Assembly (NCBI RefSeq): GCF_964213995.1
Contig: NW_027590154.1
Location: forward strand, 868,001 to 932,000
Source: Mustelus asterias
Taxonomy: Eukaryota
DNA: 64,000 bases
Direction of reading: 5' to 3'
Below the pieces are notes generated by a model that saw nothing but the letters and a program-made list of their open reading frames with translations, was not told where the DNA came from and searched no databases. Shown piece after piece: positions 27,639 to 63,269 of this stretch (its first letter is position 1; every line of letters begins with the position of its first letter). Made by a program: the position numbers and the translations under genes.

Positions 27639-27691
27639 AAGAGCGGGGCTGGGAGAGAAAGATTGAGAGAGAAAGAATCCAACCCCTGGAA

Positions 27692-36527: not shown

Positions 36528-37035
<508 letters not shown>

Positions 37036-40968: not shown

Positions 40969-41040
40969 GGTTCCGTGGTGGAATGGTGAGCACTCTGGAC
41001 TCTGAATTCAGCAATCCAAGTTCAAATCTCGGCGGAACCT
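40969..41040 (+). tRNA. trnQ-CTG: tRNA-Gln(CTG), variant or young pseudogene
   Basis: 72 nt GGTTCCGTGGTGGAATGG...CTCTGAA...GTTCAAATCTCGGCGGAACCT; T-stem mismatch (CCAAG/CTCGG); only TTT downstream. Confidence 0.85.
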
Positions 41041-41295
41041 TGCTTTGATATGCAGATGATTGATTTATCGAAGGGCGTTTCGTTTAAATTTCTCACCAAG
41101 TACTAATCGAGAAGACAATTTGTCAGCCAGTTTAACTGCTGTTACAATGCACATTGCTGAGTTTCTGGTGCCAGATGCCTGCAACGTTAGTGTTTTTCAT
41201 CTTTTCGCTGCTCTTTAACTCCTCTGTTGAAAAAAAAAGAAGCAGCTGGTGTCACACAATAACAATTCGACTGGAGTCTGGCAATTATTGAGCAA

Positions 41296-42070: not shown

Positions 42071-43371
42071 CATGCAATGATAATTTAAGTGCTTGAACCC
42101 AATTTGCTTCAATGTTTTGAAGAAGATAAAGTGGTCAATAATCATTACAAAAACATCCGCATGAAGGATTGGAGCCTGATTTTGGTCAGAGGCCAGAGCG
42201 AGTGAGAGAAGGTGTGTCTGATGTGGGAAAGGATGTGAAAATATGAATGAAAAACCCACATTGAGAGCTGCTTTCTGAATTATTACACTGTAATCATTTC
42301 AACTATTTTCATTTCTTTTATGAATGGAAGTGACATAGAACATAGAACAGCACAGAACAGGCCCTTCGGCCCACGATGTTGTGCCGAGCTTTAAACACTG
42401 AAAGGTTTTCCTAGCCGGCTGGTATTGAATTGTCAGTAATGAGGATAAGCTTTACATATCCTCTGGGGACCGTTAATCGGCTGCCTGAACTTTGCTCTCG
42501 TGTTTTGAACACATGATTGTCGAGTTACTGGAAGCGCTGACATTATTATCTCTTAAACAAATCCCAAACTCCGATGGTCGTGGCACATTGAATATACGAT
42601 AAGTAACCCGATTGAAGTTAATAATTTTAAACAGAGATGCCATTGAGAGAAATCCTGCGTACGTTAGTGGAAATGTTTATACTTCAACATCGTTCCACGG
42701 AATGTACAGTGACAGCCAGTACCTTTGCTCCAAAGCGGTAGGTATACTTTTTAAGCATCGTCACAAACACATGTTCCTTTCTTTGAACTATAGTGGGAAG
42801 GATTCCATAACTGATTATCCGACCGCTGAACTGCGGCATAACCGCTCCTTCCTTCACCAACAGATCCTCGCTTTAGCCTTGAATTGGGAGTTTCTCTTCA
42901 AGCGGCAGGGACGCTGGCAATGTGGTGAGTCAATCAGCCACTCCGACATAAAATGCAATAATTGTTCAATAATTGCCTCAGTGCTTCATGAGGGAAATCT
43001 CGCAGTCATGGCTGATCCACTCCCCCGATGGTAAGGCTTAAACGGACTGATCCTGAATGAACCAAATCTTGGACAAGCCTGAGTTTGACCGTCACAATGA
43101 TCAGAATCGGGTTTAAATGTCACCATCTGCTGTGTAAAACTGAAATATTCCTCCCATAAGGCACTGACTGTGACCCGGCTCTGAACGTTTCCAATCATTG
43201 GCAGTCAGCCAATGGCAGCCAGCTCACCAGCCTGCCTATTCTCAATGTCACTGGGAACATCAGGAAGTGAAATGAAAACATCCTGAGACTCACAGCAGAT
43301 TACTGAGGGCGGGGTTTAGAACGGGTGTCTTCAAAATCCCCAACTCCTCTTCGACAGAGCGGACAGAGACA

Positions 43372-43833
43372 ATGCGGCTGCTCAGCATCTGGGTTGTGTG
43401 GGCAATATTTCTGACAGGTAAATGTGGACCAAACACATTTCAACTTTGTTTTTACATTTTTGAAACATGGTGTAACACAAAATTTTCAACAGTCGCCTGT
43501 CAGATACTTTTATATTTGTTTTTCAGATCTGATTCATGGAGATTCTGTCACTCAGTCGCCGTCCTCAGATGTTAGGACAGAAGGAGAAGCGGTGACTTTA
43601 AATTGTAAATATGATACTGAAGCGAGCTACTACTATCTATACTGGTACCGGCAGCACCCAGACTCACAGCCTGAGTTTATACTTTCGAAATACTCTCGTG
43701 GCCGTGAAGATAAAGCCGATTTTGCCAAAAGCCGTTTCTCTGTTGAGCTCCAGACGGAGAATAAATTCAGCAGTTTAACCATCTCGGGTCTGAAGCTGGC
43801 TGACGCCGCCGTGTATTACTGCGCTTTCAGACT
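43372..43833 (+). CDS. TRAV/TRDV: TCR alpha/delta-type V segment V1, apparently functional (leader 43372..43417, V exon 43527..43833)
   Basis: 46-nt leader MRLLSIWVVWAIFLT; GT-AG phase-1 intron; DSVTQSP...TLNCKY...YWYRQHP...SRFS...LTISGLKLADAAVYYCAFR with both Cys and the Trp intact. Confidence 0.92.
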
Positions 43834-43872
43834 CACAGTGACAGAAAACAAGCTCAGCCCTGTACAAAAACT
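43834..43872 (+). other. 23-bp-spacer recombination signal sequence of V1
   Basis: CACAGTG + 23 nt + ACAAAAACT. Confidence 0.95.
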
Positions 43873-45261
43873 GCCTATCACTACAGAATGCAGCTCCTGT
43901 CTGTTGTCGCTTGTGTAAAATCGCGGTAGATGTAGCCACAATGTACAGCGAAAGGAAACCAAGCCAACCTCGAATGAAACTGTACCCAGGAGTAACTACA
44001 CAAACAAACTGCCGATTTCAACCCGACAAACAGATCAGCACAGAGTCATATTTGAAGATACCCGTTCTAATCCCCGCCTTTAATAATTTGTTCTCTACCC
44101 TCGGGGTGTTCATGCCCCACTTCCGTGTTTGACTCTGGTTCTGTGAGACCACTTGGTGGCGATCTGGTGCTGACATGGAAAGAAAAGCGTCCGAGTCTGG
44201 CTACAGTCAGCGTCTTGATAGGGGAATGGCCGCACTTTCAGAGACTGGGGGAAGTGGAAGAGGTGGTCGGGGAATGTAATCCTGGTCTGTAGATTATCAT
44301 CAGCAAATTTTGGATTGTGAGGTGCTGACAGGAACCACACCAGCCCCCAGGGAACATTCCGAAGCTCAGTGGGCACTGGGGAAAATCTACTTGGGGTTGG
44401 TTTAAAGATCACAGTCACCACTTTGCGAAATCTATTCAATGTATATAAGTTTACTCTGATTCGGCACACACTCTGTTTAAGTAAACTGTGTGAGCAGGCC
44501 GCGGCCAAGGCCTCCAGAAAACTGGGAGAGGTGACGGAGAGAGGGTTGTTCAATGCTACAGTCACGGAAAGCACATCGAAAGGAAAAAAAGTACATTGAA
44601 GTAATGAAGTAGTTTTATGAAGGTTGCTCTCAGTATAACTGTACACTGGAGTTAACTAATACAATTCCGCAAGTGTTCCTGGCGTTGTTTTTGTTTTGAG
44701 ACTGCCGGTGACTCTGACCTTGGAGGCAGAGTCTTTGATTTTGTTTCGCAATGAGAGCGCTGTCTGGAACTCCAGTGTCGCATTTTTGTCCCGAATCTGC
44801 TACTTCTCTGCTTGCTGTGTCGCACAGAAATGCGGTGTCAGAGAAAACATCTCCCGCGACATTTCAAGGGGCCATTTTGTTTCCTTTATGAAAATCAGCA
44901 GATAACTTACCTTGTACGTTTGGATACATTTTTTCAGCCCTCAGCAAAGGCAACAGTCTGGAGAACGTATCCACAAGATAGATCCCATCAGCTCCGAACA
45001 GAGGAGTTAAATGTCAGGCTCACTTCAAACTGAGCAATTGTGTACAACCCTTTAACGTGTGTTTGATAAACCAACCTTTTTAACATGTTCAATTTGGAAG
45101 TTTCGCCGCTTTACTGTTATTGTATTTCCCCGCTCTGTTTGATATGTCACTTCACAGAGAACATCTGAGAACATCTTTCTCGTTGACCCCCATCCCACAC
45201 TCAGTCTGATTAGTGACAGTGACTCAAATACTCGGAACATCTTCATCCACATTCAACACTT

Positions 45262-46535
45262 AGAACATTACAGCGCAGTACAGGCCCTTCGGCCCTCGAT
45301 GTTGCGCTGACCAGTGAAACCAATCTAAAGCCCCTCTAATCTACACTAGTCTAATATCATCCGTACGTTTATTCAATAACCATTTGAATGCTCTTAATGT
45401 TGACGAGTCCACGACTGCTGCAGGCAGGGCATTCCACGCCCTTAATACTCTCTGAGTAAACAACCTAACTCTCACATCAGTCCTATATCTCTCACCCCTC
45501 AATTTAAACTATGTCCCCTCGTGTTAGCCATCACCATCCGAGGAAAAAGGCTCTCACTGTCCACCCTATCTAATCCTCTGATCATATTGCATGCCTCTAT
45601 TAAGTCACCTCTAACCTTCTTCTCTCTAACGAAAACAACCTCAAGTCCCTCAGCCTTTCCTCATACGATTTTCCCACCATACCAGGCAACATCCTGGTAA
45701 ATCTCCTCTGCACCCTTTCCAACACTTCCACATCTTTCCTATAATGCGGCCACCAGAACTGTACGCAATACTTCAAGTGCGGCTGCACCAGAGTTTTGTA
45801 CAGTTGCAACATGACCTCATGGTTCTGAAACTCAATCCCTCTACCAATGAAAGCTAACACACCGTATGCTTTCTTAAGAACCCTCTCAACCTGGGTGGCA
45901 ACTTTCAGGGATCTATGCACATGGACCCCAGATCCCTCTGTTCATCCACAGTACCAAGTATCTTTCCATTAGCCCAGTACTCTGTATTCCTGTTGCTCCT
46001 TCCAAAGTGAATCATTTCACACTTTTCCGCATTAAATTCCATTTGCCACCTCTCAGCCCAGCTCTGCAGCTTATCTATGTCCCTCTGTAACCAGCCACTT
46101 CCCTCCGCACTGTCTACAACTCCACCGACTTTAGTGTCATCCGCAAATTTACTAATCCATCCTTCCACGCCCTCATCCAGGTCATTAATAAAAATGACAA
46201 ACAGCAGTGGCCCCAAAACAGATGCTTGCGGTGCACCACTAGTAACTGAACTCCAGGATGAATATTTCCCATCAACCACCACCCTCTGTTTTCCTACAGC
46301 TAGCCAATTCCTGATCCAAACCACTAAATCACCCTCAATCCTGTGTGCCCGTATTTTCTGCAATAGCTTACCATGGGGAACCTTGTCAAACGCATTGCTG
46401 AAATCCATATACACCACATCAACCGCTTTACCCTCATCCACCTCTTTGGTCACCTTCTCAAAGAACTCAATAAGGTTTGTGAGGCACGACCTACCCTTCA
46501 CAAAACCGTGCTGACTATCCCTAACCAAATTATTC
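45262..46535 (-). mobile_element. CR1 LINE, 5'-truncated
   Basis: ORFs 45905..46528 (QHGFVKGRSCLTNL...KFADDTK) and 45600..45920. Confidence 0.92.
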
Positions 46536-46867
46536 CTTGCATTTCATTGTTCAAGGCGATTTCTTTCAGATCAATTGAAGGTAAAAGTGTCTCTTAGCTC
46601 AAGTAGGATCAAGCTGGCTGTGTTTACTCATCTCGCTCTGAACAGGAGAGTGCGTCGTCAATGTCTCAGTTCTCTGCAATCCACAATTGTGTTTAAGTTA
46701 GTGACATCACACCAATCAGATCCAGCGATCTCTGCTCTTCCTCCTATAGGTTCTGTAGGATGTGACGACAGACCAGCCTCAGCAAATGCTCTCAGCTTCA
46801 TCTTGTTCGATATTTTGCAGCTTTCGGAGACACAAGAAGTCCGTGGAATCCAGGAACAGCAGCAGCA

Positions 46868-47885
46868 ATGTGGCTCTCCATTCTCGCTGTGATCTGCATG
46901 ACATTCATCGTCGGTAAGAAGTTTGAAACTTGAAAAAGGAGTGAACTGGAGTGTAATTTCTGCAGAAAGAAAAACAAATATCGGGCCTGCCATAGAGCGC
47001 ACTTGCGTCTTTGATCTTGGGTTTTACTTACAGGAGTATAGTTTGGCAAAACGCACAGCAAACCAGTACCAGAAGTGGGAGATGACATCTATCAGAAAGC
47101 AATGTAAACATTATGATTAATTTCTCTTCTGACGAGAAGACTAAAGGGCAAACTGGTTGATGTGTTTGATGTATTTGATGTATTTGCAATGAAGAAGAGG
47201 TTCAGTGTGGTGGACGTGGAGAGGATGATTCCACTTGGGGAGGATTCCAAATCGATGCCCCATAAATCTAAGTGAATCAAAACGATCGACTGGAAATTGC
47301 AAGGAATCTTCTTCACAGGGAGTTCTGTAGAAGGTGACGCACATTAACACAATGAGCACTTGAGGAGAGGAGTAAAGACACAGTTGGTGTAAACTAGTCA
47401 AACCACTCAGGGGGAAAGGGACAGAGGCATTTGAGATAAGGTGGGGTGGAGGATTCTCCTGGGGATTCTGAACGTGAACGTAGATCAGTTGGAGCGAATT
47501 TGTTATCATTTAATACCTATTTTTACGTTATATCGTCTGCGAATTTTCACCCTCGGTTCAGTTGAATGTTTTTCTTTCTTTAACCATGTGTTGGAGATTC
47601 TGTTACTCAGCGGGAATCCTCACTCACACGGACAGAGGGAGAAGATGTCACTTTAAGCTGCACCTATACCGACGATGCTTATTATTTATTCTGGTACCGT
47701 CAATACCCAGGCAGACAGCCCGAATTTGCGTTCCGGAGGCAGACGGGCGGCGGTGCTGAATTGAAGGCGGATTTCGCTCAGACCCGCTTTTCTGATACAA
47801 TCCAGAAGTCAGACAAGTTGTCCCGATTGACCATCTCGGAGCTGCTGCTGTCTGACACCGCGGTCTATTGCTGTGCACAGAGTCT
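46868..47885 (+). CDS. TRAV/TRDV: TCR alpha/delta-type V segment V2 (leader 46868..46913, V exon ~47585..47885); open frame but non-canonical acceptor
   Basis: Leader MWLSILAVICMTFIV|GTAAG; GDSVTQRESSLTRTEGEDVTLSCTYTDDAYYLFWYRQYPGRQPEF...TRFS...LTISELLLSDTAVYCCAQS; expected AG reads AC (TTTAAC|CA). Confidence 0.8.
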
Positions 47886-47924
47886 CACAGTGATGAGAAT
47901 GAGTGCAATCCTCGCACAAAAACT
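47886..47924 (+). other. 23-RSS of V2
   Basis: CACAGTG + 23 nt + ACAAAAACT. Confidence 0.93.
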
Positions 47925-48900
47925 GTCGCAGGTTTCTGGCTCGCACCTGCTGTTTGCTGAGTGCCGTTTATAACAGCGGGTCTCACACTGACACGTAAAC
48001 ATATTTGGAAGCAAACACCAAAAGCAATCCACATAAACGCCATTGAAAACCGTTCACATCGAAGGCAGATTCCTTCTCGTTCTTACATTCACTGTGCGAA
48101 GGAAGAATTGACTACTCTTCATTTGGGGGTCACTGGGAACTGGGCACTAACATTGGGAAGACAAAGCAAAACATCAGTCATTCGTGTAAACAGAAGCCCG
48201 CCAGCTGAGGCTAACCAATCGTGACTAAATACCTCTCATTTAAACTCATTTACAAACTGAGAATGATTGACATAAAAAGTACAAAAGGATTACTTCCAGT
48301 CATGATTAGAAGCTGATAAACAACAATGAATAGAGCAAATGATTTAAAATGAAAGAGCTGGTGTGGCCTAAGCACTGGAAGAGATGGTTTGAAAACCAAC
48401 CAAGCATAGAAGCTGGATTGAAAAGACCGTCAGGAACTTTGCTAAAATCTTCAGAAGTGCCTTGGGAAATCGGAACACACCAGAGAAGTCTTTATGCCCA
48501 TAAAAGTAAATTGCTTTTCCTGCACTTCACTCAGCGTCATTTACCTCCTGCTACATTTACCTGTTGCTTGCACTTCCGCTAACATCTGGAGCACAGACAA
48601 ATATCTGGCACAGCAATTATGTCAAAAATCTCCAATTTGCCAATTCGTAACAATTCTCTAAACACAACTTTGCATTAATGTATTTGTTGTAAATGGAAAA
48701 GAGGAATCCTTCACCAGTGCTGCATCCGTTACTCAACGTTTGTTAATATTTTGTATCTCTTTTAAATCAGAACAATTCGCTGATAGATTTAGAAATTCCA
48801 GTTACTCAACCCTCCACTCCCACCACCACCCATCCCCCTGGCCCATCCTCCCGCCACCCGTTCCTTTTGACCCTCTATTCCCTTTGTCACACTGCGGCAG

Positions 48901-50332
48901 TGTATCTGTTCAATGTTTCCTCTAATTTCTGTCACGGTGTTTCTCAGTCCGCAGTAATACACTGCGGTACCAGACAGCCGCAGCTCACGGATGGCAAACT
49001 TCCCTTCATTTTTTGAAGTGGTCATGGATGCAAAAAGCTGGTCTGGTCTGAAAACATCGCCATGTTTATGGATGTTGATCAAGAATGTTGGGCTTTTTCC
49101 CGGTCCTGATAATACATAAGACCATAAGACCATAAGACATAGGAGCGGAAGTAAGGCCATTCGGCCCATCGAGTCCACTCCACCATTCAATCATGGTTGA
49201 TTTCAACTCCATTTACCCGCTCTCTCCCCATAGCCCTTAATTCCTCGAGAAATCAAGAATTTATCAATTTCTGTCTTGAAGACGCTCAACGTCTCGGCCT
49301 CCACAGCCCTCTGTGGCAATGAATTCCACAGACCTACCACTCTCTGGCTGAAGAAATTTCTCCTCATCTCTGTTCTAAAGTGACTCCCTTTTATTCTAAG
49401 GCTGTGCCCCCGCGTCCTAGTCTCCCCTGCTAATGGAAACAACTTCCCTACGTCCATCCTATCTAAGCCGTTCATTATCTTGTAAGTTTCTATCAGATCT
49501 CCCCTCAACCTCCTAAACTCCAATGAATATAATCCCACGATCCTCAGACGTTCATCGTATGTCAGGCCTACCATTCCTGGGATCATCCGTGTGAATCTCC
49601 GCTGGACCCGCTCCAGTGCCAGTATGTCCTTCCTGAGGTGTGGGGCCCAAAATTGCTCACAGTACTCCAAATGGGGCCTAACCAGTGCTTTATAAAGCCT
49701 CAGAAGTACATCCCTGCTTTTGTATTCCAAGCCTCTTGAGATAAATGACAACATTACATTTGCTTTCTTAATTACGGACTCAACCTGCAAGTTTACCTTT
49801 AGAGAATCCTGGACTAGGACTCCCAAGTCCCTTTGCACTTTAGCATTATGAATTTTGTCACCGTTTAGAAAATAGTCCATGCCTCTATTCTTTTTTCCAA
49901 AGTGCATGACCTCGCACTTGCCCACGTTGAAGTTCATCAGCCACTTCTTGGACCACTCTCCTAAACTGTCTAAATCTTTCTGCAGCCTCCCCACCTCCTC
50001 AATACTACCTGTACAGCTGTAAGAAATGTGAATTAGCTGTGGTCGAATAGCTGAAATCATTCATTACCGAATCTCCTTCAAACGTTGTCATAAAACGGCT
50101 CCTGTGGGCCAGAATCTGTATCAATAATACCTGCAATTAATTATAAATGCAGTTTTTAAAAAAATTGTCAATGTTATCAAGGTAACGGAATTGATTGCAA
50201 CCAGTGAAGAAACATGATATATGGGTGATTTCCAAGTCCGTGTCACGAACAAAGTGAAAATTATTCAATTTACTTACTTGCCAGTTAAGAGCGCTGCCGC
50301 TGTGGGGATTTCTGCAAAGTAAGAGTTAATTT
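48901..50332 (-). pseudogene. TRAV/TRDV: TCR V pseudogene V3, split by a CR1 insertion; RSS 48901..48939
   Basis: 3' half PGKSPTFLI...IRELRLSGTAVYYCGLR + CACCGTG-23-ACAGATACA; 5' half at ~50010-50130 (FEGDSVMNDFSYST...LQLYR) is frameshifted and lacks Cys and Trp; decayed leader ~50281-50332. Confidence 0.8.
49115..50010 (-). mobile_element. Young 5'-truncated CR1 inserted in the V3 exon
   Basis: Uninterrupted ORF2 C-terminus (49203..~50010) and TCTTATGG tail repeats. Confidence 0.92.
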
Positions 50333-51106
50333 GCTCACAGAGCTGATGCTGGATCTGAACTCAGTGAGTTAAAGCTCAATTGCTCGAGTTGGATTCCAGA
50401 AGTTGGTGAGTAATATCCGACCTCACTCGTCATTGGTTCATTCCTGACAGAGCCACCAGGAGACCCCCAATCAGCTCACGAGTCCTCTGTCCTACATTTC
50501 ATCCAATCAGCTCAGAGTGTCTTTGTTCTTTCATCCATGACGTCAAAGCGAGGCGCGTGGAACAATTTGAATCTGTTCTCAAAACAATGAACTGGGCAGA
50601 AAAGCATTAGAGAATGGGGAATAGGAGCTCTAGTCAACCATTTGTTCCTTCACCAGGGCCCGCTACCGCTGTTCAGTAAGATCATGGCTATTTTACCTTA
50701 TATCCACTTTCCTGCAACATCCCCATATTCCTTATTTACGTTAATACCCATCAATCAATCGTCACCCTTCTTGAATAAACTACGTCTCTCTGTGAAAGAG
50801 AATAGTAAATATGGGTATTAAAAGCAGTTTTGTTTCTTTATCAGCGTTAATCTTTGCGATGGATCATTTATGGGTAACAGTTCATGTTGTTCCGATAACA
50901 GCACCAGAGTTTCCCGATTCAAGACCTGCTCGGAGACTTGGTAAACTAGTATAATGACGGATTTTACAGAGAGCGACACAATTCCGCCCTGCAGAAATAA
51001 ATCATTCCGTCAAGTTGGCCTTTTTTATTGTGTTTCTGTTAAATTAACAGTTCACAATCCAGGTCACAGATCTGATGCAGTGAGAGGAGGTGAGAGTGCG
51101 TTTGTT

Positions 51107-51582
51107 GGTTTTTGTACGGACTGACTGTGCCTCTGTAACAGTGTGAGGATCAGCGCACAGTGATACACGTCAGAGTCAGAGACACAGACCCGGGTGATAT
51201 TTAACGGAACCGTTTTCTTGTCTTGCTCCAAATCAGCAGAAAACCGGTCAAGGAATTCGGGAGACGTATCCCCCTTCCGTTTGCCGTAACTCCTCAATAA
51301 ATATCTCGGAACTTTCCCAGGATACTGGATGTACCGGAAGAGAATGTTGCCTGTATATTTTGTTTCGTAGCTGCAGTTCAGTATTACCGTCTGTCCTTCC
51401 TGAACTGTTAGTTCAGGCGGCTCCTGGGAAACTGAATCTTGGCCACTGGTTCCTGTAACAACATATGGAATGTGTGAGAAATCTGTGAGTGAATATAACC
51501 CGTGAAACACGCACTGAGGATTTGCACTCAGACTCACCGGGCAGTGAGACCATTATTATGAGTAAACACTCAGGGGACACAT
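51107..51582 (-). pseudogene. TRAV/TRDV: TCR V segment V4 (leader 51582..51538, V exon 51452..51146, RSS 51145..51107), probably non-functional
   Basis: Open V exon QDSVSQEPPELTVQEGQTVILNCSY...FRYIQYPGK...VYHCAL with Trp changed to Arg; leader is 45 nt (1-nt deletion, TAA TAA); RSS CACACTG-23-ACAAAAACC. Confidence 0.88.
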
Positions 51583-52453
51583 GGTTCCTGATTGGACAGT
51601 AAACAGCGAGACTCTTTAAAATATTTCGCTGCTTCTAGTCTGATGTCACAGATCAGATCAGAGGCAGCTTCTCTTATGGGGACACTGAAGGGCGTTTCTT
51701 AGTGCTGCGAATGGCTGGTCTCTTAGCTCTGAAGTCAGCTGAGGGAAATCACGGTTAGTTGAGGGTATAATGGCTGACGCTCTCCAATCACAATCCCTGG
51801 CTGTGCGTATGTCTTTGAAGTCTCTTTCTCTGTCTGACATTTCTTCTGAACTCAACGTCGATCGCTTTCTCCCCAATGAAGGTAGAAGGTGAAATAAATA
51901 TATTAAAGTAAGTCTCGATGTGCCGAAGGACATTTTCTGCGCTCCATACCTCTTAGACTATGTGACTCAATTCACAGGGATATTTAGTGCATGAACGTAA
52001 TCAATAGTTTTACCTTTCAAAAGTGCTGGGGATATTAAATCACCCTACTGCACACAGATTGGGGCTGTTGTTGTACTGCCCACAGGAGGGCGCTTCCACT
52101 TAATTATTATTTCTACCCCTGGAAATGCGACAACTCTGAAATTAGACCACTTTTAAAATGTGTCCCCTGGTAGATTGTCAGCTGTTCCAGAAATTTTACA
52201 AGTATCGATTGATAAACTTATTCATCCAGGAGATCTGCGAGTCTGTGCGAATGGACTCGGGAAATGATTGAATTTCACCCTAGAGGAATATTATCGCTAA
52301 ATATCAACTTTCCAATCGTGACAATCATTCAGTTCGGCGAAAGATAGCCCCTCAGATGGGGCTGCATTGATGCATTCATTATCTGTCCTGTTATATGAGA
52401 TTCAACTCCATTTGTTGTCCTGATCCCAAACCCTTGATGATCATTCGGCGCCC

Positions 52454-53303
52454 AGTTTCTGTTTGTGGCCCGCGGGAGCCTCATTCACTGTGGGTCTCAG
52501 TGCATAGTAATACAAGGCGCTATCGGTCAGCTCCAATTTTCTCAAGGACAAGTGAAAAATGTTTAATTTCCGGTTGTGATTCCTGCTGAGGTGTTCAAAG
52601 CCGGGAGCCACCTTCTTATACTCATAACTATCGGCTTTGAGCAGATACTGGGGAACTCTGTGTGGATGCAGGCCATATCCTCTAGCTGAACTCGGTACAG
52701 AGTAACTGCAGAATATTGATGAATTTTCACCCTTTGCTGATTGAACTCCTGTTTCTGACTGGGACATTGAGTCTTCGCTACTCATCTCTAAAAATGAACA
52801 GCAGACAAACAACTGGTTAGAAGGAGTAACGTGAGGAGGATGAGTACCCAAGATTGTATTTCTTTTTTATTCATTCGTGGGACGTGGGCGTCGCTGACTC
52901 GCCAGCATTTAATGTCCATTCCTAGTTGCCCTTGAATTGAATGGTTTGCTCGGCCTTTTCAGAGTGCAGTGGAGAGTCAACCATTTCGCTTTGGTTCTGG
53001 AGTCACATGTCGGCCAGACCGGTTAAGGATGGCAAAGTTCTTTCCGCAACGGGCATCAGTGAAGCAGCTATGTTTTTGTTCTGACAATCTACAATTGTTT
53101 CATGGTCATCAGCAGATTCTTAATTCTGGACTGGTTTTAACTTAATTCAAATTCCATGATCTGCCGTGGCCGGATTCGAAGCCCACTCCCCAGAACATTG
53201 AAATGAGAATAAATATGAGTGTTCTCGAATGCAGAGCAGAGGTTGAAATTGACCGACCTGTGATTAGGGCAATAAACAGTGGCAGACAGATTTTCACCCC
53301 CAT
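52454..53303 (-). pseudogene. TRAV/TRDV: TCR V segment V5 (leader 53303..53258, V exon 52787..52493, RSS 52492..52454); open frame but lacks the WY motif and second Cys
   Basis: Leader MGVKICLPLFIALIT; GT-AG intron; EDSMSQ...IFCSYS...GYGLH^PHRVPQYLL...DSALYYYALR; CACAGTG-23-ACAGAAACT. Confidence 0.85.
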
Positions 53304-54274
53304 GGTTCCAGTCTGAAATCCGGAAACAGAGACAGTGGCTGTATTAGACCTGCAATTGGAATTTCGTTATCAGCTGGGGGCGGGGGGTTATGAGTCAAAT
53401 GCGATTTCTTCTCCCCACCCATTTTCACGTCTTCAAACACTGTCTTTCTCGAGAAGGGGATCATGATCTCTCATAACTAATCGGAGAGCGCCCTCCTGTG
53501 GGCAGCATGGCCATATGTTGGAAACAGATACACACGTGCAAAAATACACGCTTGTTGAGATCCACATCTATCAGAGACAAAGGAGAACAGCACAATAAGT
53601 TTGTTTCATTGGGTGCCGGGGAGGAATAGGTGACAGAGACTTCGTAAATGTTCACAAGCAACTCATTGGGAGTGCAGCGTTGTTATACTGAAGAAAGTAA
53701 GGGGGATTCCATGTGTTGAAATAAATCCATTAAATTCTGCTCGTTCAGCCCGAACGTTTCAATGGAGAGGAGACACAAGATGAAAAGCTTGTGACCTGTG
53801 TCGACATATTTTGACTAATTTGGACAGTGATGCTTTCGTCTTATCGAATCTTCTGGCATTCATTTTGGTGGATTTAGTTATTTTCAAAGTACTGTCTGTC
53901 TGTCTATTTCACTATCTATACACTTGTATTTACCGATCTGTTGTTGCACTAATTCTCTTTGTATATCGATCCCAATGTGTCTATGTCTTTAGCTGTCTCA
54001 CTCATCCCGTCAATCTATCAAAAACACCCCATTCTGTATCTGAATTTGTCAGCTTATCAATTCGTCCATCCTTTCGTCCGCTCCATCTATCCATCCATTG
54101 TTAACTGATGTTTCCCTTGCTTAACATGCCTGAATACCAGCAAAATGATCCAAAAATAGAAACAAAATAGCGTATATTTAGAAAACAATGTGAAATCGCG
54201 GGGAGGTGGTTGGTTGTTCCCTTTATTTTCTCTCACCATCTAAATTATGTGTTGGAACATTTGTTCGGAAGAGT

Positions 54275-54995
54275 CGCATACAGAGGAATCTGGGCATGCT
54301 GGTCCACAGTTCCCTAAAAGGGGTAACACAGGTGGCCAAGGCGATTAATAAGGCATGTGGCATGCTTGCCTTCATCAGCCGGGACATGGAGTACAGGAGT
54401 TAGAAAATCATGTAGCAGTTGTATAAAACCTTGGTTAGTTCGCATTTCGAGTATTGCCTGCAGTTCTGGTCCCCACCCTACCAGAAGGACGTGGAAGCTT
54501 TGGAGAGAATGCTAAGAAGGTTCACTAGGGTGTTGCCTGGTCTGGGGGGTGTTGGCAATGAGGAGAGGTTTAATTAGCTAGGTTTATTTTCACTGGAAAG
54601 ACGGAAGCTGGGGGGAGACCTGACAGGAGTCTACAAAATTATGAGAGGCATAGGCAGGTTGGATAGTCAGAGGTCCTTTTTCCTAGAATGGAAGTGTCAA
54701 TTCGAAAGAGGCACAAGTTCAAGGTGAGATGGGGAAAGTTTAAGGGAGAGGTGCGAGGGAAGTTTTTCATGCACATAGTGGTGGATGGCTGAAACGCGCT
54801 GCCAGAGCATGTGGTGGAAGCATACACATTAGCAACATTCCAGAGGCATCTGGATGGGTACATGAATATGGAGCAAATAGAGGGATACGGACCGAGTAAG
54901 GGCAAAGGGTTTCTTTTAGTTAGGGCATCATGATCGGCACACGTTTGGAGAGCCGAAGGCTCTATGCTGCAATTTTCTTTGTTCTCTTTTGTTCT
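54275..54995 (+). mobile_element. Degraded CR1 3' portion
   Basis: KACGMLAFISR and FWSP motifs, in-frame stops, TTTGTTCT tail. Confidence 0.85.
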
Positions 54996-55951
54996 TGAAA
55001 TAAACGTACATCTTTTGCTTGTAAATGCTTAATTAATACATCCAAATGCAGTTGCAAGAATTACATGCCTTGAGTGAAAGATTGAAATAACGAATTACAC
55101 ATATTTATAGTTTTTCAGTAAGTTCTAAGGATTTACATACAACAAAGTTTTTTCCAACGGCGGTCACTGCCATAATGTAAGAGCCATTCGGTCGTTCGAG
55201 TCTGCACTGTCATTCAATAAGATCAGGACTGAACTGATGTAATAATCCTCAACTCCATTTTCCCGCCTTATCTCCATGACATTTGATTCCATTACTGGTT
55301 AAAATCGGCCTATCTCAGCCCTGAACATACTTAAAGACTCAACCTCCACAACATTTTGCACAAATCATTCCACAAAATCACTGTCCTCTCAGAAGAAATT
55401 CCTCCTCATATCGGTCTTCGATGGGCATCTTTTCCTACAAGGGGAAGCAACCTCTCACCATCTACTGTGCCAATACTCTTAAGATAAATCTCTTAAGGAT
55501 ATGCCAATTAGACATTAAACTGTGTCTCATCTTAATTTGAAATCAACCTCTTCAGAACAATAAGAGTTTAGTTTGTCGTTCGGATCTATTGAAGATCCAA
55601 CTGTCCATACGTATATATCTTGCTCTCTGCTCAGTGGGATGGGGTGTTAACCTTCAACTTTCCTGAAAAGGCAGCGTTCGTGACCCAAATAGATTCATCT
55701 GCTTCAGCGATGACCTTCCTTCCATCATAATTTAGACAACGTTTCCCGACAATTCCATAATGCTCTGAAGCATTCCGAACCTCTGAGAAACTTAAATAGT
55801 CGATTTTGGCATGTAGGGATTGCAATGGTCGATATGTGGCAAACATCATTCGTGCCACAAAAAGTGTCAATCAGTCATCATTTCCGACAACAGGGTTTCT
55901 AACATTCTACGATTTCACGTCAACTGCCTTTCCATCGCTGAATCCCCCCAG

Positions 55952-58307
55952 TAGGAAAATACTCAAACGGGGAATTAGAAGAGCAAAAAGGGGTCACGAA
56001 ATGTTCTTGGCAGACAGGATTAAGGAGAATCCCAAGGCATTTTATTCATACGTTAGGAACAAAAGGGTTGTTAGGGAAAAAATCGGACCTCTCAGGGACA
56101 AAAGTGGGGACTTATGCTTGGAGCCCAAAGAGGTAGGGGAGATCCTAAATGAATACTTTGCGTCGGTATTCACAAAGGAGAGGGATGTGTTGACTGGGAG
56201 TGTCTCGGAGGGGAGTGTTGAACCGTTGGAGAAAATCTCCATTACAAAGGAGGAAGTGTTAGGTTTGTTAGAGAATATAAAGACTGACAAATCCCCAGGG
56301 CCTGATGGAATCTATCCAAGGCTGCTCAGGGAGACGAGAGGTGAAATCGTTGGGCCTCTGACGCAAATCTTTGTCTCGTCACTGGACACAGGTGAGGTCC
56401 CAGAGGATTGGAGGATAGCCAATGTGGTCCCGTTATTTAAGAAGGGTAGGAAGGATAACCCGGGTAATTATAGGCCGGTGAGCTTGACGTCCGTGGTGGG
56501 GAAGTTGTTGGAGAAGATTCTTAAAGATAGGATGCATGCGCATTTAGAAAGGAATAAACTCATTAACGATAGTCAACATGGTTTTGTGAGAGGGAGGTCA
56601 TGCCTCACTAACCTGGTGGTGTTTTTTGAAGAAGTGACCAAAATGGTTGACGAAGGAAGGGCCGTGGATGTTGTCTATATGGACTTTAGTAAAGCGTTTG
56701 ACAAAGTCCCTCATGGTAGGCTAGTGAAAAAGGTTGGATCCCATGGGATAAAGGGGGAGGTGGCTAGATGGGTGGAGAACTGGCTTGGTCATAGAAGACA
56801 GAGGGTGGTAGTGGAAGGGTCTTTTTCCGGCTGGAGGCCTGTGACTAGTGGTGTACCGCAGGGCTCTGTATTGGGACCTCTGCTGTTTGTGATTTATATA
56901 AATGATCTGGAAGAAGGAGTAACTGGGGTGATCAGTAAGTTTGCGGACGACACAAAACTGGCAGGACTTGCAGATAGTGAGGAACATAGTCAGAGGCTAC
57001 AGAAGGATATAGATAGGCTGGAAATTTGGGCAAGGAAATGGCAGATGGAGTTCAATCCTGATAAATGCGAAGTGATGCATTTTGGTGGGAATAATGTAGG
57101 GAGGAGCTACACGATAAATGGAAGAACCATAAAGGGTGTAGAGACGCAGAGGGACCTGGGTGTGCAAGTCCACAGATCTTGGAAGGTGACGTCACAGGTG
57201 GAGAAGGTGGTGAAGAAGGCATATGGCATGCTTGCCTTTATAGGACTAGGCATAGAGTATAAAAGTTGGGGTCTGATGTTGCAGTTGTATAGAACGTTGG
57301 TTCGGCCGCATTTGGAATACTGCGTCCAGTTCTGGTCGCCACACTACCAGAAGGACGTGGAGGCTTTGGAGAGAGTACAGAGGAGGTTTCCCAGGATGTT
57401 GCCTGGTACGGAGGGGCTTGGTTATGAGGAGAGATTGGGGAAACTGGGGTTGTTCTCCTTGGAAAGACGGAGGATGAGGGGAGACTTAATAGAGGTGTAT
57501 AAAATTATGAAATGCATGGATAGGGCGAACGGTGGGAAGCTTTTCCCCAGGTCGGTGGTGACGTTCACGAGGGGTCATAGGTTCAAGGTGAAGGGGGGGA
57601 GGTTTAACACAGATATCAGAAGGACATATTTCACACAGAGGGTCGTGGGGGCCTGGAATGTGTTGCCGGGCAAGGTGGTGGAGGCGGACACACTGGGAAC
57701 GTTTAAGACTTATCTAGACAGCTATATGAACGGAGTGGGAATGGAGGGATACAAAAGAGTGGTCTAGTTTGGACCAGGGAGCGGCGCGGGCTAATTGTTC
57801 CTTGTTTCTCGTTTCAAGGCTTCATTCTATGATCATCTTGCTGGTGCCAGTACAGAGCGAGACTGCGGATAGTTGGGAACCTGTCTCGGGGGCAGGGAAT
57901 TCATATGGTGTTCGTGGAAGTGGAAATGACTAGGGTTGGGAAGCATTTTCCGATCAGGGCCATTGTGATCTCCTGGACTCGTTTCGATCGCCTCAGGGGG
58001 TCGGAGAGGAATTTCCCAGATTTTGTTTCCCCCATATTGGCCCTGGGGTTTTTCACTCTGGGTTTTCGCCTCTCCCTGGAGATCACATGGTCTGGAATGG
58101 GGGGGGTGGGGGTGAGTTAATAGGTTGTAATGAACAAAGCATCGTTGCTGTGAGGGACAGCTCGGTGGATAGGATATTGGTATGTAGATAGGCTGGAAAA
58201 TTGGGCGGGGATCCTGGATTCAGGATTCAATCCTGGGCCGGGGAGCGGCGCGGGCTTGGAGGGCCGAAGGGCCTGTTCCTGTGCTGTATTGTTCTTTGTT
58301 CTTTGTT
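55952..58307 (+). mobile_element. Young CR1 LINE, 5'-truncated, with about 600 aa of uninterrupted ORF2 (RT) and a long 3' UTR
   Basis: ORF to 57767 with KSPGPDG, NYRPVSLTS, QHGF, GVPQGSVLGP, FADD; no endonuclease domain; tail TGTTCTTTGTTCTTTG. Confidence 0.95.
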
Positions 58308-59143
58308 TGTACCTACACCCTGGCGCTTCCCATTGATCGATCTTTAAAACACTGGCTGCAAGAGCCTGTCAGACATGGGGAATTTCCCTGACTCCCCAAA
58401 GTCTGACTGCTAACTACAAGGCACCGTCAAAAATGTGAAGGCATATTTTCTGTCTACTTAGATGAGTGGATCTCCAGCAATCTCCAAATGCTCGATATCA
58501 GCCACAGCTACTTGACTGCTACCCCGCCGACCACCTTAAACATTCACTCCTTCCACTAAAAGCACACGAAGATAGCACCATTCTACAAGGTGAAATGCAG
58601 CAAATCGCCAAGAGCACTTAGACAGCACCTTACAAACCTACCACCCAGAAAAAGAAGCACAACGCGGCAGGAGAGCCACACCATCTCCAAGTTCCCGAAC
58701 AAGAGTGCAGCTGTATAGAATGGCAGCTCACTCATTCCTCTTTAAGATCAATTAGGGATGAGCAACACATTCTAGCATCATCTGAGGTGATGAAATCCTT
58801 TGTAAGTGTGAACGAAACTTAAACTTTGAGGGGGAGTCACCGTTCCCTAAAATGAAACTAAGGGCATTTAAGAGTACAGAATACCCTGGAATAAAATCAA
58901 AAGCTCGAGCTATGGGCACAATATAACCAGAGAGTGCTTCATGTTCACGCTGTTCTTTCATTCCAAAGTCATGAACACAGGATGGGTAATGTCTGTCACT
59001 CAGCACGGGCTGCTTCAATTTACTGATAGCTGGCTCACCACCCACCGGCCTCACAGCGCCCCCAGAGATACAGAAAGTGAGATGTAGATACCTGAGTTTC
59101 CAACAGATTACCTCACCCCCATTTCACATTGCGGATAGCGGCA

Positions 59144-59649
59144 ATGCAGCTGCTCAGCATCTGGGTTGTGTGGGCAGGATTTATGACAGTTAATTGATGA
59201 TTAAATGCATTTAATCTTTTCTCTGATTTATCAAGCATGGTTCAAACCTTACCAATGGCAATGGAAGCTTGATCTGTTTCTCTGTGATTGCCTTTTTTCC
59301 GGATCTAATTAATGCGGATTCTGTCACCCAGCTTCTCTCCTGAGGTGCTGAGACAGAACGAGAAGCGGTGGCAATGACCTGTACCGATGACACCACAAAG
59401 AGGAGCTACAGATTAGTTTGGCACTGTCAGCGCCCAGAGTTTCAGCCTGCGTTCATCGTGTGGTAAAGCTCTGGGGGCTCTAAATTTAAAGCAGATTTTT
59501 GCTAAAATCCGTTTGTCTGCTGAACTCCAGACCGGGACTAAATTCATCAGCTTAATCATCTCGTGTCTGCAGCTGACTGACGCTGGCGGCCATGAATGCG
59601 CTTTCAGTCTCACAGTAATAGAATACAGTCTTATTGCCGTCCAGAAACC
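59144..59649 (+). pseudogene. TRAV/TRDV: TCR V pseudogene V6 (V1 family); RSS 59611..59649
   Basis: Leader MQLLSIWVVWAGFMT; both splice sites mutated; DSVTQLLS* with more stops and a frameshift; CACAGTA-23-CCAGAAACC. Confidence 0.85.
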
Positions 59650-59919
59650 ATCAGCGGCAGGTCCTGCCTGCTGCGGGGGAAGATTCAGTCGCAATGAACA
59701 GTGCCGCCGTCGGACGCTCAAACACAGCGAGTGGAAACCAGATTAACCTCGGGCCAAACTGTCACTCAACCGTGACAAGGAGCGGCTGAGAAAACAAACT
59801 CACGAACCAATGGGACAGAGACATAGCACAGAACCTTGTTTGAAATTATACCTTCTCATTCCCACTCTCAACAAACCTCGGTCTTGTGAGACCTATCAGG
59901 GGTGAATCCAAGCATCCAG

Positions 59920-60220
59920 AGTGGCGCAGTGGTTAGCACTGCTGCCTGGGAGCTGCCTCGGTTCGATTCCCGGCTTGGGTCACTGTCTGTGTGGCGATTG
60001 CACATTCTCCCCGTGTCTGAGCGGGTTTCCTCCAAGTGCTCCGGTTTTCTCCCACAGTCGAAAGATGCGCGAGTTAGGTTAATTGGCCATGCTAAATTGC
60101 TCTTTATTGCCTTGGCTGTGTAGGCTAAAGGGATGTGTGAGGTCGTGGAATAAGGCCCAAATGGGATTGTTGGCGGTGCAGGCTCGATGGGCCGAATGGT
60201 CTCCTGCACTGTATGGTTTC
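59920..60220 (+). mobile_element. HE1-like SINE
   Basis: GTGGCGCAGTGGTTAGCACTGCTGCC head, GGTTCGATTCC, V-domain, CR1-type tail. Confidence 0.8.
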
Positions 60221-62162
60221 TGTGATTCATTCCCGGCTGGGTTGCAGACAAAGTCCCTGCAGGGGGGAATGGATCGGCTGTTGCAGCGGTGGCAATGGAA
60301 TCCTGATCTTTCAATGAGCAACGGTACAAAATATAAAATAAATGCAGGCTTTCCAATCAAATTTATTGCGCTCACAAATCATTTACACTACATCTGTGCA
60401 GCAATAACTCGCACAAATTTCCAGATTAATTTGAGAACTCAGTATGTACAGTAATACCCAATATGTTGGCGTGATCACTGCAACAGATCAGTCACTAAAC
60501 TACATGAGAATGAGGAGGGTCATTTGTTAATCTTAACTCACCAATTCTGGAATTCCCAAGAGTTTCTATTATTTCCTTAAGGGTAACTGTCCATTTTGTT
60601 GCTTTTCGAATGTGTCACTTCGACCAGATTCCATTGCAAGTGATGACCACTATCTGCGTAATGAGTTGTCTCCTATCTGAGCCCCAATTTTACCTTTTAC
60701 GCCACTGAACCTATGTAAATTTACTGCCCCCGCACTGAATTTAAGGTAGAACTCAGGCTCAACCCTTTCCATACCCAATGCTACTTTGGGTATTTAGGCT
60801 TTGTTGAGGTATTTACGTTTTCTTACTTCCTGCAACGCTGCTTCGATATGATTCGTTTCTTTTTCCCCTTTACACCTGTTTCTCTCTTTTTCCCGACAGC
60901 GCCTCTGACACACCGGTCTCTCCCGGACCACTGCCTTCTTATGTTCCCAAGCTTCCTCATACTCTCTCCCTCGCAAAACCTGTCTGCATCGATTCCAGTT
61001 TCTGTGCTCCTTCATTATTGGAATAAGAAACAGAGTTCCCTTTGGCCATCCAACCCTGCCATGTCATCTGCAAAGGAACATTTGTTCCTAAATCAATTGC
61101 CATAATGTTTCATAATAGACCGTTGTTTTTCTTTATCCTATCTGGCAATGTGAATGCCTTCTATTTTTCTGAATTATGTTCCTGTTTACCACTTCCTTCC
61201 CTAGTCACTCAACAACCTGCTATCCTTTTGCAAGTTCATTCTGTCTCTTAGATTATAACCCAATTCACTCCATATTTCCAGAAGGTCAGTATATGTTACA
61301 CATGGTCCTTCTCCATATTACGAAAATGCAAATAGAACTCAGCGATTCAAAAAGTCGGCACATCAATATCATTTCCTGCTTCAATTGGCATCAGCACCAA
61401 TTGTGACCTTGCCAGAAACGCCGAGAAAACTTGAAAATGTTTAAAAAGGAACCATGGGGAGGGATGGGGCGCGGTGGGGAGGGGGGGGGGGGGGTGGGGG
61501 AGGAGTGGTGGTCGGGGAGAGATAACTTGTACTTGAGTCATGTTTCCCACTATCCTGATAGTGAGACTAACGAAATTATTGAGAGAAAATTGGCAAACCG
61601 ATTTGAACAATCTGAATTCCGTATCACAATCAGCAGACGAGGAATCATTCCCTCACCCGGGTCTGAATCCGAAACCATTCACTCCGTAGAGATAGTGATC
61701 TGAATCCAGCTCAGGATGTTTCTAATTCCTGCCTACTATCTCACCACCCACCGTCTCACAGCACCATGGCGAGGAAGTGAGGCTATAGCATCTTGAGACT
61801 AAACGCGAAAATGCTGGAAAATCACAGCAGGTCTGACGCCATCTGTAAGGAGAGAAAAGAGCCGACGTTTCGAGTCCAGATGATCCTTGGTCAAAGCTAA
61901 AATACATAGAAAGTGGGAGATGTTTATCCTTCAGGGTGAGAGAAGGAAAGATAAGTCATAGGTACAGAAACCGGGGAAAAGGCTGCTAATGGCAGTCCAT
62001 TGAAATAATAAAAGGCGTGAATGGCCAAAAGGCAGAGAAACTGAAATCAGAGGGCAGATTATTGTAGGTGGAGTTAAAAACGGGTGTCTAAATTTCCAAT
62101 CCCGCCGCCCCCCCCCCCCCCCCCCACCCCACCTCCTCCGTTTCACAGAGTATACAACGAGA

Positions 62163-62666
62163 ATGCAGCTCCTCAGCATACGTTGTGTGGGACGCATTCC
62201 TTACAGGTAATTGCGGACCAAGCAGACTTCACCTTTTCTCTAATTTTCCACGCATATGTTAAATCAAATTTTAATCCGCAGCCCGTTTTATGTTTTTAAT
62301 TCTAATATAACTTTTCAGATCAGGCTCATGGAGAGTTTGTCACTCAGCCTCTATCATCAGAGGTAAAGACAGATGGGGACGCGGTGATATTGACGTGTAA
62401 CTATGAAACTACTGAAAGTGATTATGCATTGCACTGGAGCCAATAATACCCGGGTGCATAGCTCGAGTTCATGCTGTGGAGGAATACAAACAATGATGAA
62501 TATAAAGCAGACTTTACTAAAAACCGTTTCTATGCCTCGCTAAAGATCACGATTAAATTCACCACTGTAACGATCTCGGGCCTGCAACTCACTGACGCTG
62601 CTCTATATTATTGTGCTTTGTAAGTGTCACAATGATGAAAAGTAATCTCACCCCTGTGCAAAAGCT
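62163..62666 (+). pseudogene. TRAV/TRDV: TCR V pseudogene V7 (V1 family); leader 62163..62206, V exon 62319..62627, RSS 62628..62666
   Basis: 44-nt frameshifted leader; HGEFVTQP...LTCNY...LHWSQ*YPGA*LEF...NRF...ISGLQLTDAALYYCAL*; CACAATG-23-GCAAAAGCT. Confidence 0.87.
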
Positions 62667-63269
62667 ATCTTTGGATAGTAGCTGGGAAATCCTGTGTGTT
62701 AGAACTTGGGTGGAATCTTGGGCAGATGCAGCAACACTGAGCAACGACTCTATCAGAGGCTCAAACACACACCGAGAGGAAACCAAATTAACTTCGGACC
62801 AAACTGTCACCTGGTTCCAGGAGCGGTGGAGAAAAGCAAACCACTGGACAGGCAGACTCAAAACAGAATCATAATTAATGACATCCGTTCTAACGCCACT
62901 CTTACTATTTGCAGCTGCGTTAGTGTGATGAGTGCTGAGTTGGTAGTTAGTTAATCGCACCATCCCAAACTGAAATACAATTTCCCTACTTGAGAAATAA
63001 TTCTGTGATTGAAGATCAGAAGGTGGGAATGAAATGCTGGCCTGATAATGGTCAACAACAGTCAAAGAAATGGACAAGGAAAATATTCCAACATTGCGAG
63101 ATAGCAGGAAGGATAATGAAAACTGAGGGAAATCACAAATTCCGTTGGTTTTAAACACCCTTCATTAGCTTGTAAAATCTCCTGATTGTGTATAAACTGT
63201 GCCTGATACAGCAACATACTTTGATCAAAAATACTCTGTGAAAATAATGTGTCGGGTGGGGGTGGAGAA

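What the first reader, a model, noticed from the sequence alone, without database searches (positions are those of the whole stretch)
43372..62666. Seven TCR alpha/delta-type V segments in mixed orientation directly beside a zinc-finger cluster
Seen: seven leader-intron-V-23RSS units oriented +,+,-,-,-,+,+, from several families. No D, J or C segment and no Ig octamer is evident. The array starts about 6 kb from the last ZNF gene. Known: TRAV/TRDV segments carry 23-RSS, while shark IgH and NAR V segments sit in compact V-D-J clusters. Inference: this is the outer edge of the TCR alpha/delta locus or an orphon V array. If it is linked to D/J, one orientation group must rearrange by inversion. 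Several segments are fragmented or missing in the ORF track.
Basis: partly seen in the sequence, partly recalled or inferred. Interest (0 to 1): 0.8.

Follow-up and report, generated by a model that had tools for sequence, protein, structure and literature searches.

The report
Shark V island, repeated TCR-delta clusters
This is a mostly decayed group of seven shark T-cell-receptor variable gene pieces (one intact) lying among zinc-finger genes, ordinary in itself, but it likely feeds a region where the delta-chain gene has been copied into probably nine or more small, antibody-like clusters instead of the usual single locus.

Summary
The seven V-23RSS units and their +,+,-,-,-,+,+ order are real (7 signals against 0.5 expected). 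They are TCR alpha/delta-type V segments. Only V1 is intact, V2 is doubtful and five are broken, including all three on the minus strand. The array is not an outer edge: V segments and a NARTCR V lie on the far side of the ZNF cluster, and an IgH V-J cluster lies about 190 kb to the right. V segments scattered in both orientations are published for sharks, so the array itself is ordinary. Its context is not. The assembly holds 19 TCR-delta constant genes, each with its own 2-4 J and, where covered, a D. After allowing for haplotig-like duplicates this is at least 9-10 loci. Six of the 19 carry V-D already joined. Two separate TCR-alpha loci have no delta gene next to them. The window's contig also holds an exact RAG-type inversion with both joints kept. 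The scan had already noted the multiplied delta unit and similar V islands on other DNA (e1-9561590, e1-9598399); I tested these claims here. Linkage and expression of V1 were not shown.

The parts
1..37271 (.). C2H2 zinc-finger gene cluster (nine ZNF blocks in the window, both strands); it continues to C122:857 kb and has V segments on its other side
40205..40302 (-). tRNA gene with an intron-like insert (ARAGORN calls it Tyr; recalled as resembling tRNA-Ile UAU, not tested)
40968..41041 (+). tRNA-Gln(CTG) between the ZNF cluster and V1
43147..64000 (+). first copy of a 36,021-bp tandem duplication (runs to window position 79,167; second copy has 0 mismatches; 2-bp overlap at the junction)
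43372..43872 (+). V1: intact TRAV/TRDV-type segment (leader 43372-43417, GT-AG intron, open V exon with both Cys and the Trp, RSS 43834-43872)
46868..47924 (+). V2: leader 46868-46913, open V exon, good RSS; normal acceptor removed by a deletion of about 15 nt; a weak GAG acceptor would keep the frame; status doubtful
48901..50330 (-). V3: pseudogene split by a LINE fragment (about 49230-50006); leader remnant without an ATG; weak RSS 48901-48939
51107..51582 (-). V4: pseudogene (leader 45 nt instead of 46, early stop; conserved Trp replaced by Arg); RSS 51107-51145
52454..53303 (-). V5: open frame, but five codons including the conserved Trp are missing and the second Cys is Tyr; RSS 52454-52492
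55800..57767 (+). LINE reverse-transcriptase frame (655 aa) between the minus and plus groups; further LINE pieces at 45371-46564 and 54254-54888
59144..59649 (+). V6: V1-family pseudogene (donor and acceptor lost, stops, frameshift); RSS 59611-59649
62163..62666 (+). V7: V1-family pseudogene (leader frameshift, stops); RSS 62628-62666

Best explanation
The seven segments are a TCR alpha/delta V island, with one intact V, one doubtful V and five pseudogenes, set between zinc-finger clusters and likely belonging to the shark antigen-receptor complex, where RAG would join V1 over a long distance to a D-delta of one of many small D-J-C-delta units or to a J-alpha. Shown: the anatomy of the seven segments; V islands alternating with ZNF clusters on C122; 19 C-delta genes, each with its own J and, in 18, a free or joined D; two J-alpha/C-alpha loci. 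Inferred: C122 lies on the same chromosome arm as these targets; V1 is used; the ZNF genes in between are passengers that are deleted or inverted in the rearranging T cell. Also inferred: the mixed orientation was inherited with an old V module copied and shuffled by segmental duplication, and was not made by RAG at these V ends.
For: V1 is 67% identical to the V of a whale-shark chain that ends in a delta-type C, and groups with it (95/81). None of the five window segments in the tree falls in the VH clade. Six of 7 segments have 14 nt from the Cys codon position to the heptamer, the length of the zebrafish V-alpha end consensus quoted in PMC10322711. C71 carries three C-delta units (7.14, 11.04, 12.27 Mb) and C-alpha at 18.42 Mb with 31 J. 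C122 alternates ZNF (702-772 kb), V (812-852 kb), ZNF (857-905 kb), V (911-978 kb) and ends with an IgH V-J at 1.12 Mb, as in the complex described in PMC12227049. The order V2(+) V3(-) V4(-) V5(-) recurs in the paralogous block on C140 and C71:15.8 Mb. All seven V keep their own RSS and the window has no signal joint. In nurse shark five of seven delta V families also served alpha chains (PMC5931798, passage).
Against: C122 is not joined to C71 and has no TCR constant exon (70 of 70 and 38 of 38 candidates scored). No J-alpha- or J-delta-type J was found in the 472 kb of 1,130 kb read, so linkage is inferred. No rearranged or spliced V1 transcript was seen. The tree held no TRBV or TRGV, most deep forks were unresolved, and V5 and V3 are placed weakly; the Atlas features did not separate alpha/delta from gamma or beta. 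The assembly holds haplotig-like duplicates (C140 against C71 99.78% over 67 kb; C850 against C71 99.84% over 28.5 kb), so 19 overstates the number of delta loci.
Confidence: 0.78

Rival explanations
1. A true orphon array: the block was copied away from any D/J/C and V1 can no longer rearrange.
For: No TCR C on C122 and no J-alpha- or J-delta-type J in 472 kb read. Five of 7 segments are broken. The delta unit at C122:392 kb is cut off before its D-J-C.
Against: V1 has kept its frame, splice sites and RSS. The contig carries NARTCR cassettes and an IgH cluster, like the published complex. On C71, V1-family segments also lie up to megabases from the nearest J.
Confidence: 0.1
2. One canonical TRA/TRD translocon whose C-delta copies are mostly assembly duplicates, with this array near its edge.
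For: Haplotig-like pairs exist. Published gene-model tables list one delta next to one alpha in catshark and stingray. The delta gene of C115 lies at a contig end and could adjoin a J-alpha array across a gap.
Against: The 19 regions are all different, 0.04-9.5% apart, in eight groups at least 1.3% apart, two of them with 4 and 5 members. Three lie on one contig and differ in V content. The units differ in D sequence, J number and V-D joining. Run X6 holds at least three sequence classes over one stretch of the exon, and they match different G000 groups. The array has V segments on both sides of the ZNF cluster.
Confidence: 0.05
3. Germline RAG activity itself flipped the minus-strand trio, so the mixed orientation is a scar of inherited V(D)J inversion.
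For: The same contig holds an exact RAG-type inversion of about 5.76 kb with a coding joint and a perfect 12/23 signal joint. A second heptamer fusion lies on C110. Germline joining is published for shark Ig (PMC2193156, abstract).
Against: No signal joint lies in the window, all seven V keep their RSS, and the convergent order is shared with a diverged paralogous block, so any scar would be old and was not seen.
Confidence: 0.07

Closest known systems
Elasmobranch antigen-receptor complex, AgRC (PMC12227049; sections 6 and 15 and Table S1 read)
   Same: TCR alpha/delta V exons and NARTCR V scattered in both orientations over megabases among IgH clusters (white shark chr27, about 8.2-17.1 Mb); pseudogene V common.
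   Different: That paper describes TCR alpha/delta as a translocon, and its tables list one delta model beside one alpha model in catshark and stingray. Here there are 19 assembled D-J-C-delta units and two alpha loci with no delta gene directly upstream. The tables list selected gene models, so single copy there is as listed, not proven. ZNF interleaving is not mentioned in the sections read.
Shark Ig miniclusters with germline-joined segments (PMC6795676 passages; PMC2193156 abstract; PMC2193153 passages)
   Same: Repeated small units, each with its own constant gene, some with V-D joined in the genome and with RAG-type junctions.
   Different: Here the repeated unit is TCR delta, holds several V types (NARTCR, supporting V, VH-like V), one D and 2-4 J, and sits in a shared field of V islands such as this one.
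Duplicated or separated TRA/TRD loci of newts, alligator, flounder and galliform birds (PMC12698447, discussion part 1 of 2 read)
   Same: TRA separated from TRD, two TRA loci, an additional TRD cluster, a germline pre-joined V.
   Different: Those cases involve one extra locus; here the delta unit occurs at least 9-10 times.
ZNF arrays around shark MHC class Ia-like genes (PMC10751288, passages)
   Same: Multicopy zinc-finger genes packed around immune genes in shark genomes.
   Different: That report concerns the MHC; here the ZNF clusters lie between rearranging V segments and directly 5' of a J-alpha array.

Membership tests
TRAV/TRDV gene segment | Leader exon, intron, V exon with both Cys and the conserved Trp | tested here: met
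   Met in full by V1 only (1 of 7); V2 doubtful; five broken
TRAV/TRDV gene segment | 3' RSS with 23-bp spacer | tested here: met
   7 of 7
TRAV/TRDV gene segment | Closest sequences are TCR alpha/delta V, not VH, VL or NAR V | tested here: met
   V1 and V7 group with the V of a whale-shark delta-type chain; best pairwise scores of V1, V2, V4, V5, V7 and the V3 part are to TCR-type V (V6 not scored); the best PDB matches that are TCR chains are alpha or V-delta-1
TRAV/TRDV gene segment | Exclusion of TRBV and TRGV by phylogeny | not tested
   No labelled beta or gamma V was held; Atlas features did not discriminate
TRAV/TRDV gene segment | Found rearranged to D-delta/J-delta or J-alpha in transcripts | not tested
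   No reads were laid on V1; see Tried and rejected
Shark IgH or IgNAR minicluster V | D, J and C within a few kb; octamer promoter; VH or NAR clade | tested here: not met
   No D, J, TCR C or promoter octamer in the window; outside the VH clade
Elasmobranch AgRC V field | TCR alpha/delta V and NARTCR V in both orientations, interleaved with IgH clusters | tested here: met
   C122 holds NARTCR V at 392, 836, 942 and 978 kb and an IgH V-J at 1.12 Mb
Elasmobranch AgRC V field | Linkage to PSMB5, UrIg2 and TCR constant genes | tested here: inconclusive
   No TCR C on C122; PSMB5 and UrIg2 not searched; contig not joined to C71
TRDC (the 19 constant copies) | Exon-1 signature CLXXXFXP without the alpha signature CLXTD(X)F (PMC10322711, section 18) | tested here: met
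   19 of 19 read CLASDFSP; the two alpha exons read CLATDYF and CLVTDYF
TRDC (the 19 constant copies) | Upstream D with 12/23 RSS and few J | tested here: met
   19 of 19 have 2-4 J; 12 have a free D; 6 have V-D joined; 1 not covered (contig end)
Canonical TRA/TRD translocon | One C-delta in the order trdc-(traj)n-trac | tested here: not met
   On C71 a ZNF cluster lies 5' of the J-alpha array and the nearest C-delta is 6.1 Mb away; C546 has no C-delta in the 138 kb before its first J found, but a join across the contig end is not excluded
Orphon V array | Lies outside the rearranging locus, unlinked to D/J/C | tested here: inconclusive
   Unjoined contig without TCR C, but with all other marks of the complex

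The most novel reading that the evidence does not exclude
In this shark the TCR-delta gene has left the single nested TRA/TRD translocon and is organised like shark antibody genes: ten or so NARTCR/V-D-J-C-delta miniclusters, several pre-joined or inverted by RAG in the germline, spread among ZNF clusters and V islands such as this one, and uncoupled from two separate TCR-alpha loci. Alpha rearrangement would then not delete all delta genes, and each T cell would have to choose among many delta loci.
Probability: 0.65. Interest if true: 0.72.

Novelty: new variant of a known kind. Interest (0 to 1): 0.5.

Why it matters
The seven-V array is an ordinary, mostly dead piece of a published kind of region. 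The locus it likely serves is what matters. Reviews state that shark TCR genes are translocons while shark Ig genes are miniclusters (PMC6795676, passage). A TCR-delta gene repeated about ten times, with germline V-D joins and a retained germline-type signal joint, blurs that line. It makes two questions testable in one animal: how one delta chain is chosen among many loci, and whether alpha-beta versus gamma-delta exclusion needs the delta gene to be deleted. It also warns that automatic labels call these delta chains 'alpha'.

Tried and rejected
1. I first read the 19 constant matches as TCR alpha, because the query carries that database name. Rejected after the signature test, the D segments, the NARTCR linkage and a separate search that found the true alpha exons. 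The PDB search did not discriminate: both shark C types hit human delta best. The quick C tree separated alpha from delta with weak support only.
2. Expression: the run search listed no RNA holder for V1; this says nothing either way. No reads were laid on V1.
3. A read-depth comparison of C-alpha with C-delta was not obtained, so copy number rests on the assembly and on sequence classes in contigs. Depths are not copy numbers, and X6 may be the source sample of the assembly.
4. Two V queries were out of frame; they were corrected from then on, and positions were unaffected.
5. No signal joint, D or J in the window. The signal-joint pattern covers only exact heptamers with one nonamer class, so 2 is a lower bound.
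6. TCR beta and gamma constant genes were not counted: no labelled query was held.
7. Four key papers were not held: Ott 2021, Deiss 2019, Criscitiello 2006 and 2010. They may describe the nurse-shark locus in ways that bear on novelty. No paper describing many shark TCR-delta constant genes appeared in the listings of searches; one search was swamped by unrelated matches to 'trac'.
8. The scan's place look-up near this finding returned nothing.
Full report
OBSERVATION. A scan for recombination signals and Ig motifs found seven V exons, each ending in a 23-spacer RSS, with heptamers at +43834, +47886, -48939, -51145, -52492, +59611 and +62628. With one criterion for all (heptamer up to 1, nonamer up to 3 mismatches) the stretch holds 7 signals; 200 first-order Markov simulations gave a mean of 0.485 and at most 4. 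The window has no D, J or TCR C exon and no octamer at a V promoter. The last ZNF block ends 6.1 kb before V1, with two tRNA genes in between.

STATE OF THE SEVEN. V1 splices in frame, keeps both Cys and the Trp, and has a near-consensus RSS. V2 has an open exon and a good RSS but has lost its normal acceptor; a weak GAG acceptor would keep the frame, so its status is open. V3 is split by a LINE piece. V4 has a one-base leader deletion and Trp-to-Arg. V5 lacks five codons with the Trp and has Tyr for the second Cys. V6 and V7 have stops and frameshifts. So 1 of 7 is intact, and the whole minus-strand group is dead.

IDENTITY. Pfam gives V-set for V1, V2 and V4 and nothing for V5 and the V3 part; V6 and V7 were not scanned. 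In a tree of 35 V domains, V1 and V7 group with the V of a whale-shark chain that ends in a delta-type constant region (95/81; V1 67% identical), and none of the five window rows enters the VH clade; most deep forks are unresolved, V3 and V6 were left out, and no beta or gamma V was available. Six of 7 ends have 14 nt from the Cys codon position to the heptamer, the length of the zebrafish V-alpha consensus quoted in PMC10322711 (passage). The closest named proteins to the genome's constant exons are labelled Mustelus asterias, so the organism is a smooth-hound shark or a close relative.

NOT AN EDGE. The window is G000:C122:868,001-932,000. I read 472 kb of this 1,130-kb contig. It alternates ZNF cluster (702-772 kb), V island with a NARTCR V (812-852 kb), ZNF cluster (857-905 kb), the present island with a broken NARTCR V (911-942 kb) and its tandem copy, then a V remnant at 1.06 Mb and an IgH V-J at 1.12 Mb. 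The copy is 36,021 bp long with 0 mismatches and starts 225 bp before V1; the junction has a 2-bp overlap. It is either a very recent duplication or an assembly error; I could not tell which. Genome-wide, the V1 query lists 150 matches (150 of 1994 candidates scored) on 66 contigs, 19 on C71 from 6.5 to 17.4 Mb, 12 plus and 7 minus. The order V2(+) V3(-) V4(-) V5(-) recurs on C140 and C71:15.8 Mb, there with ZNF genes at the other end. I infer that the mixed orientation is an old module spread by segmental duplication. Scattered alpha/delta V exons in both orientations among IgM clusters are listed for the white shark over about 9 Mb (PMC12227049, section 6 and Table S1). The array is therefore a further example of a published layout.

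WHAT THE V SEGMENTS COULD JOIN. A shark constant-region query found 19 exon-1 and 19 transmembrane-exon matches, three on C71 and none on C122 (70 of 70 candidates scored). Databases label these chains alpha, but they are delta. All 19 read CLASDFSP, the delta signature of PMC10322711 (section 18). All 19 have 2-4 J within 23 kb; 12 have a free 12/23 D, 6 have a V joined to the D, and 1 is cut by its contig end. NARTCR, supporting V and VH-like V lie upstream in the units read in full. A catshark protein 61% identical over this region bears the same automatic name as the model that Table S1 marks as TCRD (matched by name only). A true alpha query found only two exon-1 places (38 of 38 candidates scored): C71:18.42 Mb with 31 J and a ZNF cluster directly upstream, and C546 with 135 J found. 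They are about 80% identical around exon 1 and are paralogues. Neither has a delta gene directly upstream: the nearest on C71 is 6.1 Mb away, and C546 has none, although a join across its end is not excluded.

HOW MANY DELTA LOCI. Over 5.4 kb the 19 regions are all different, 0.04-9.5% apart, with 14 different exon-1 proteins and no stop in exon 1. Against a literal count, the assembly keeps haplotig-like pairs: C140 against C71 is 99.78% identical over 67 kb and C850 against C71 99.84% over 28.5 kb. With two alleles per locus, 19 sequences need at least 10 loci, or 9 if the two closest pairs are discounted. Three units lie on one contig and differ in content. In public contigs laid on one exon, run X6 holds at least three classes over 3155-3184, and their letters match different G000 groups. 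X6 may be the source sample, and the depths are not copy numbers. Run X8 has a J spliced to this exon, and X1 (guessed RNA, another organism) shows at least three variants. Two delta-type models of Heptranchias, 119 of 142 aligned residues identical, share one contig length, a hint that duplication is not confined to this species.

RAG SCARS IN THE ASSEMBLED DNA. The six V-D joins have four different junctions; one is shared by three copies 1-3.4% apart, so it is likely inherited. On the window's own contig a NARTCR unit at 392 kb carries an inversion of about 5.76 kb: the NARTCR D, trimmed by one base, is fused tail to tail with the supporting V, and the 12- and 23-RSS are fused heptamer to heptamer at the other end. 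It was the only signal joint in 1.69 Mb held at that time. A genome-wide exact pattern found this one and one more on C110, against 0 for the control. These fit germline RAG action, published for shark Ig (PMC2193156, abstract; PMC2193153, passages). A germline origin is inferred from the assembly, not shown. No such scar lies in the window.

MECHANISM. Shown: anatomy, neighbourhood and possible targets. Inferred: in thymocytes RAG cuts the 23-RSS of V1 and joins it to the 12-RSS of a D-delta or a J-alpha, by deletion or inversion depending on where C122 lies, and the ZNF genes in between are lost or flipped in that clone. Nurse-shark V families serve both alpha and delta chains (PMC5931798, passage). 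On C71, 6 of 16 stop-free V1-query matches face away from the J-alpha array and would need inversion to join it. Not shown: linkage of C122, transcription or rearrangement of V1.

COMPARISON AND NOVELTY. PMC6795676 (passages) states that shark TCR genes are in translocon arrangement and Ig genes in miniclusters. PMC12698447 (passages and discussion part 1 of 2) lists separated or single extra TRA/TRD loci as rare exceptions. PMC10751288 (passages) notes ZNF arrays around shark MHC class Ia-like genes. I found no paper on many shark delta constant genes in the listings of searches, but four central nurse-shark papers were not held. The scan's own notes had recorded the multiplied delta unit and similar V islands on other pieces of this genome, and a delta minicluster in another genome; my reading was written before I saw them.

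VERDICT. The array is real and ordinary (alone it would score about 0.2). The locus it most likely serves is a new variant of a known kind: TCR delta in repeated, partly pre-joined miniclusters, apart from two alpha loci. Overall interest 0.5.

Noticed in passing
G000:C122:393,165-398,935 (L065, L066:3922, L170): Exact RAG-type inversion of about 5.76 kb in a NARTCR cassette: tail-to-tail coding joint of NARTCR D and supporting V, and a perfect 12/23 signal joint. Non-productive; germline origin inferred.
   Followed up: yes
G000:C110:113,673-113,703 (L169): Second heptamer-to-heptamer fusion, D-delta 5' 12-RSS to a NARTCR V RSS, next to an inverted NARTCR V; structure not resolved.
   Followed up: partly
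window 43147 to C122:983,186: 36,021-bp tandem duplication with 0 mismatches that holds the whole V array and a broken NARTCR V; real recent copy or assembly error.
   Followed up: partly
G000:C71:18.29-18.43 Mb and C546:138-242 kb: Two paralogous TCR-alpha loci (31 J and 135 J found; exon-1 regions about 80% identical); the C71 J array has a ZNF cluster where C-delta usually lies.
   Followed up: yes
L131 (C850), L137 (C401), L044/L151/L158 (C436, C119, C96), L080 (C71:11.02 Mb): V-to-D-delta joins in the assembled DNA with four different junctions; the joined V has a stop in C401 and in the C71 copy.
   Followed up: yes
G000:C71:12,229,725-12,229,885 and 7,091,239-7,091,338: The supporting V's 23-RSS is repeated in tandem with a 61-bp period (three copies and two copies).
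   Followed up: no
G000:C122:1,119,537-1,120,650: IgH-type V and J (23-RSS) about 190 kb right of the array; its constant exons were not found before the contig end.
   Followed up: partly
window 40205-41041: Two tRNA genes lie between the ZNF cluster and V1; a boundary role is a guess from recalled tDNA insulators.
   Followed up: no
P0021 and P0039: Two different delta-type constant regions in Heptranchias perlo models that share one contig length; databases label shark delta chains 'alpha chain-like'.
   Followed up: partly
G000:C140:605-672 kb against C71:15.79-15.86 Mb: 99.78% identity over 67 kb: haplotig-like duplicates are present, so gene counts in this region are inflated.
   Followed up: yes
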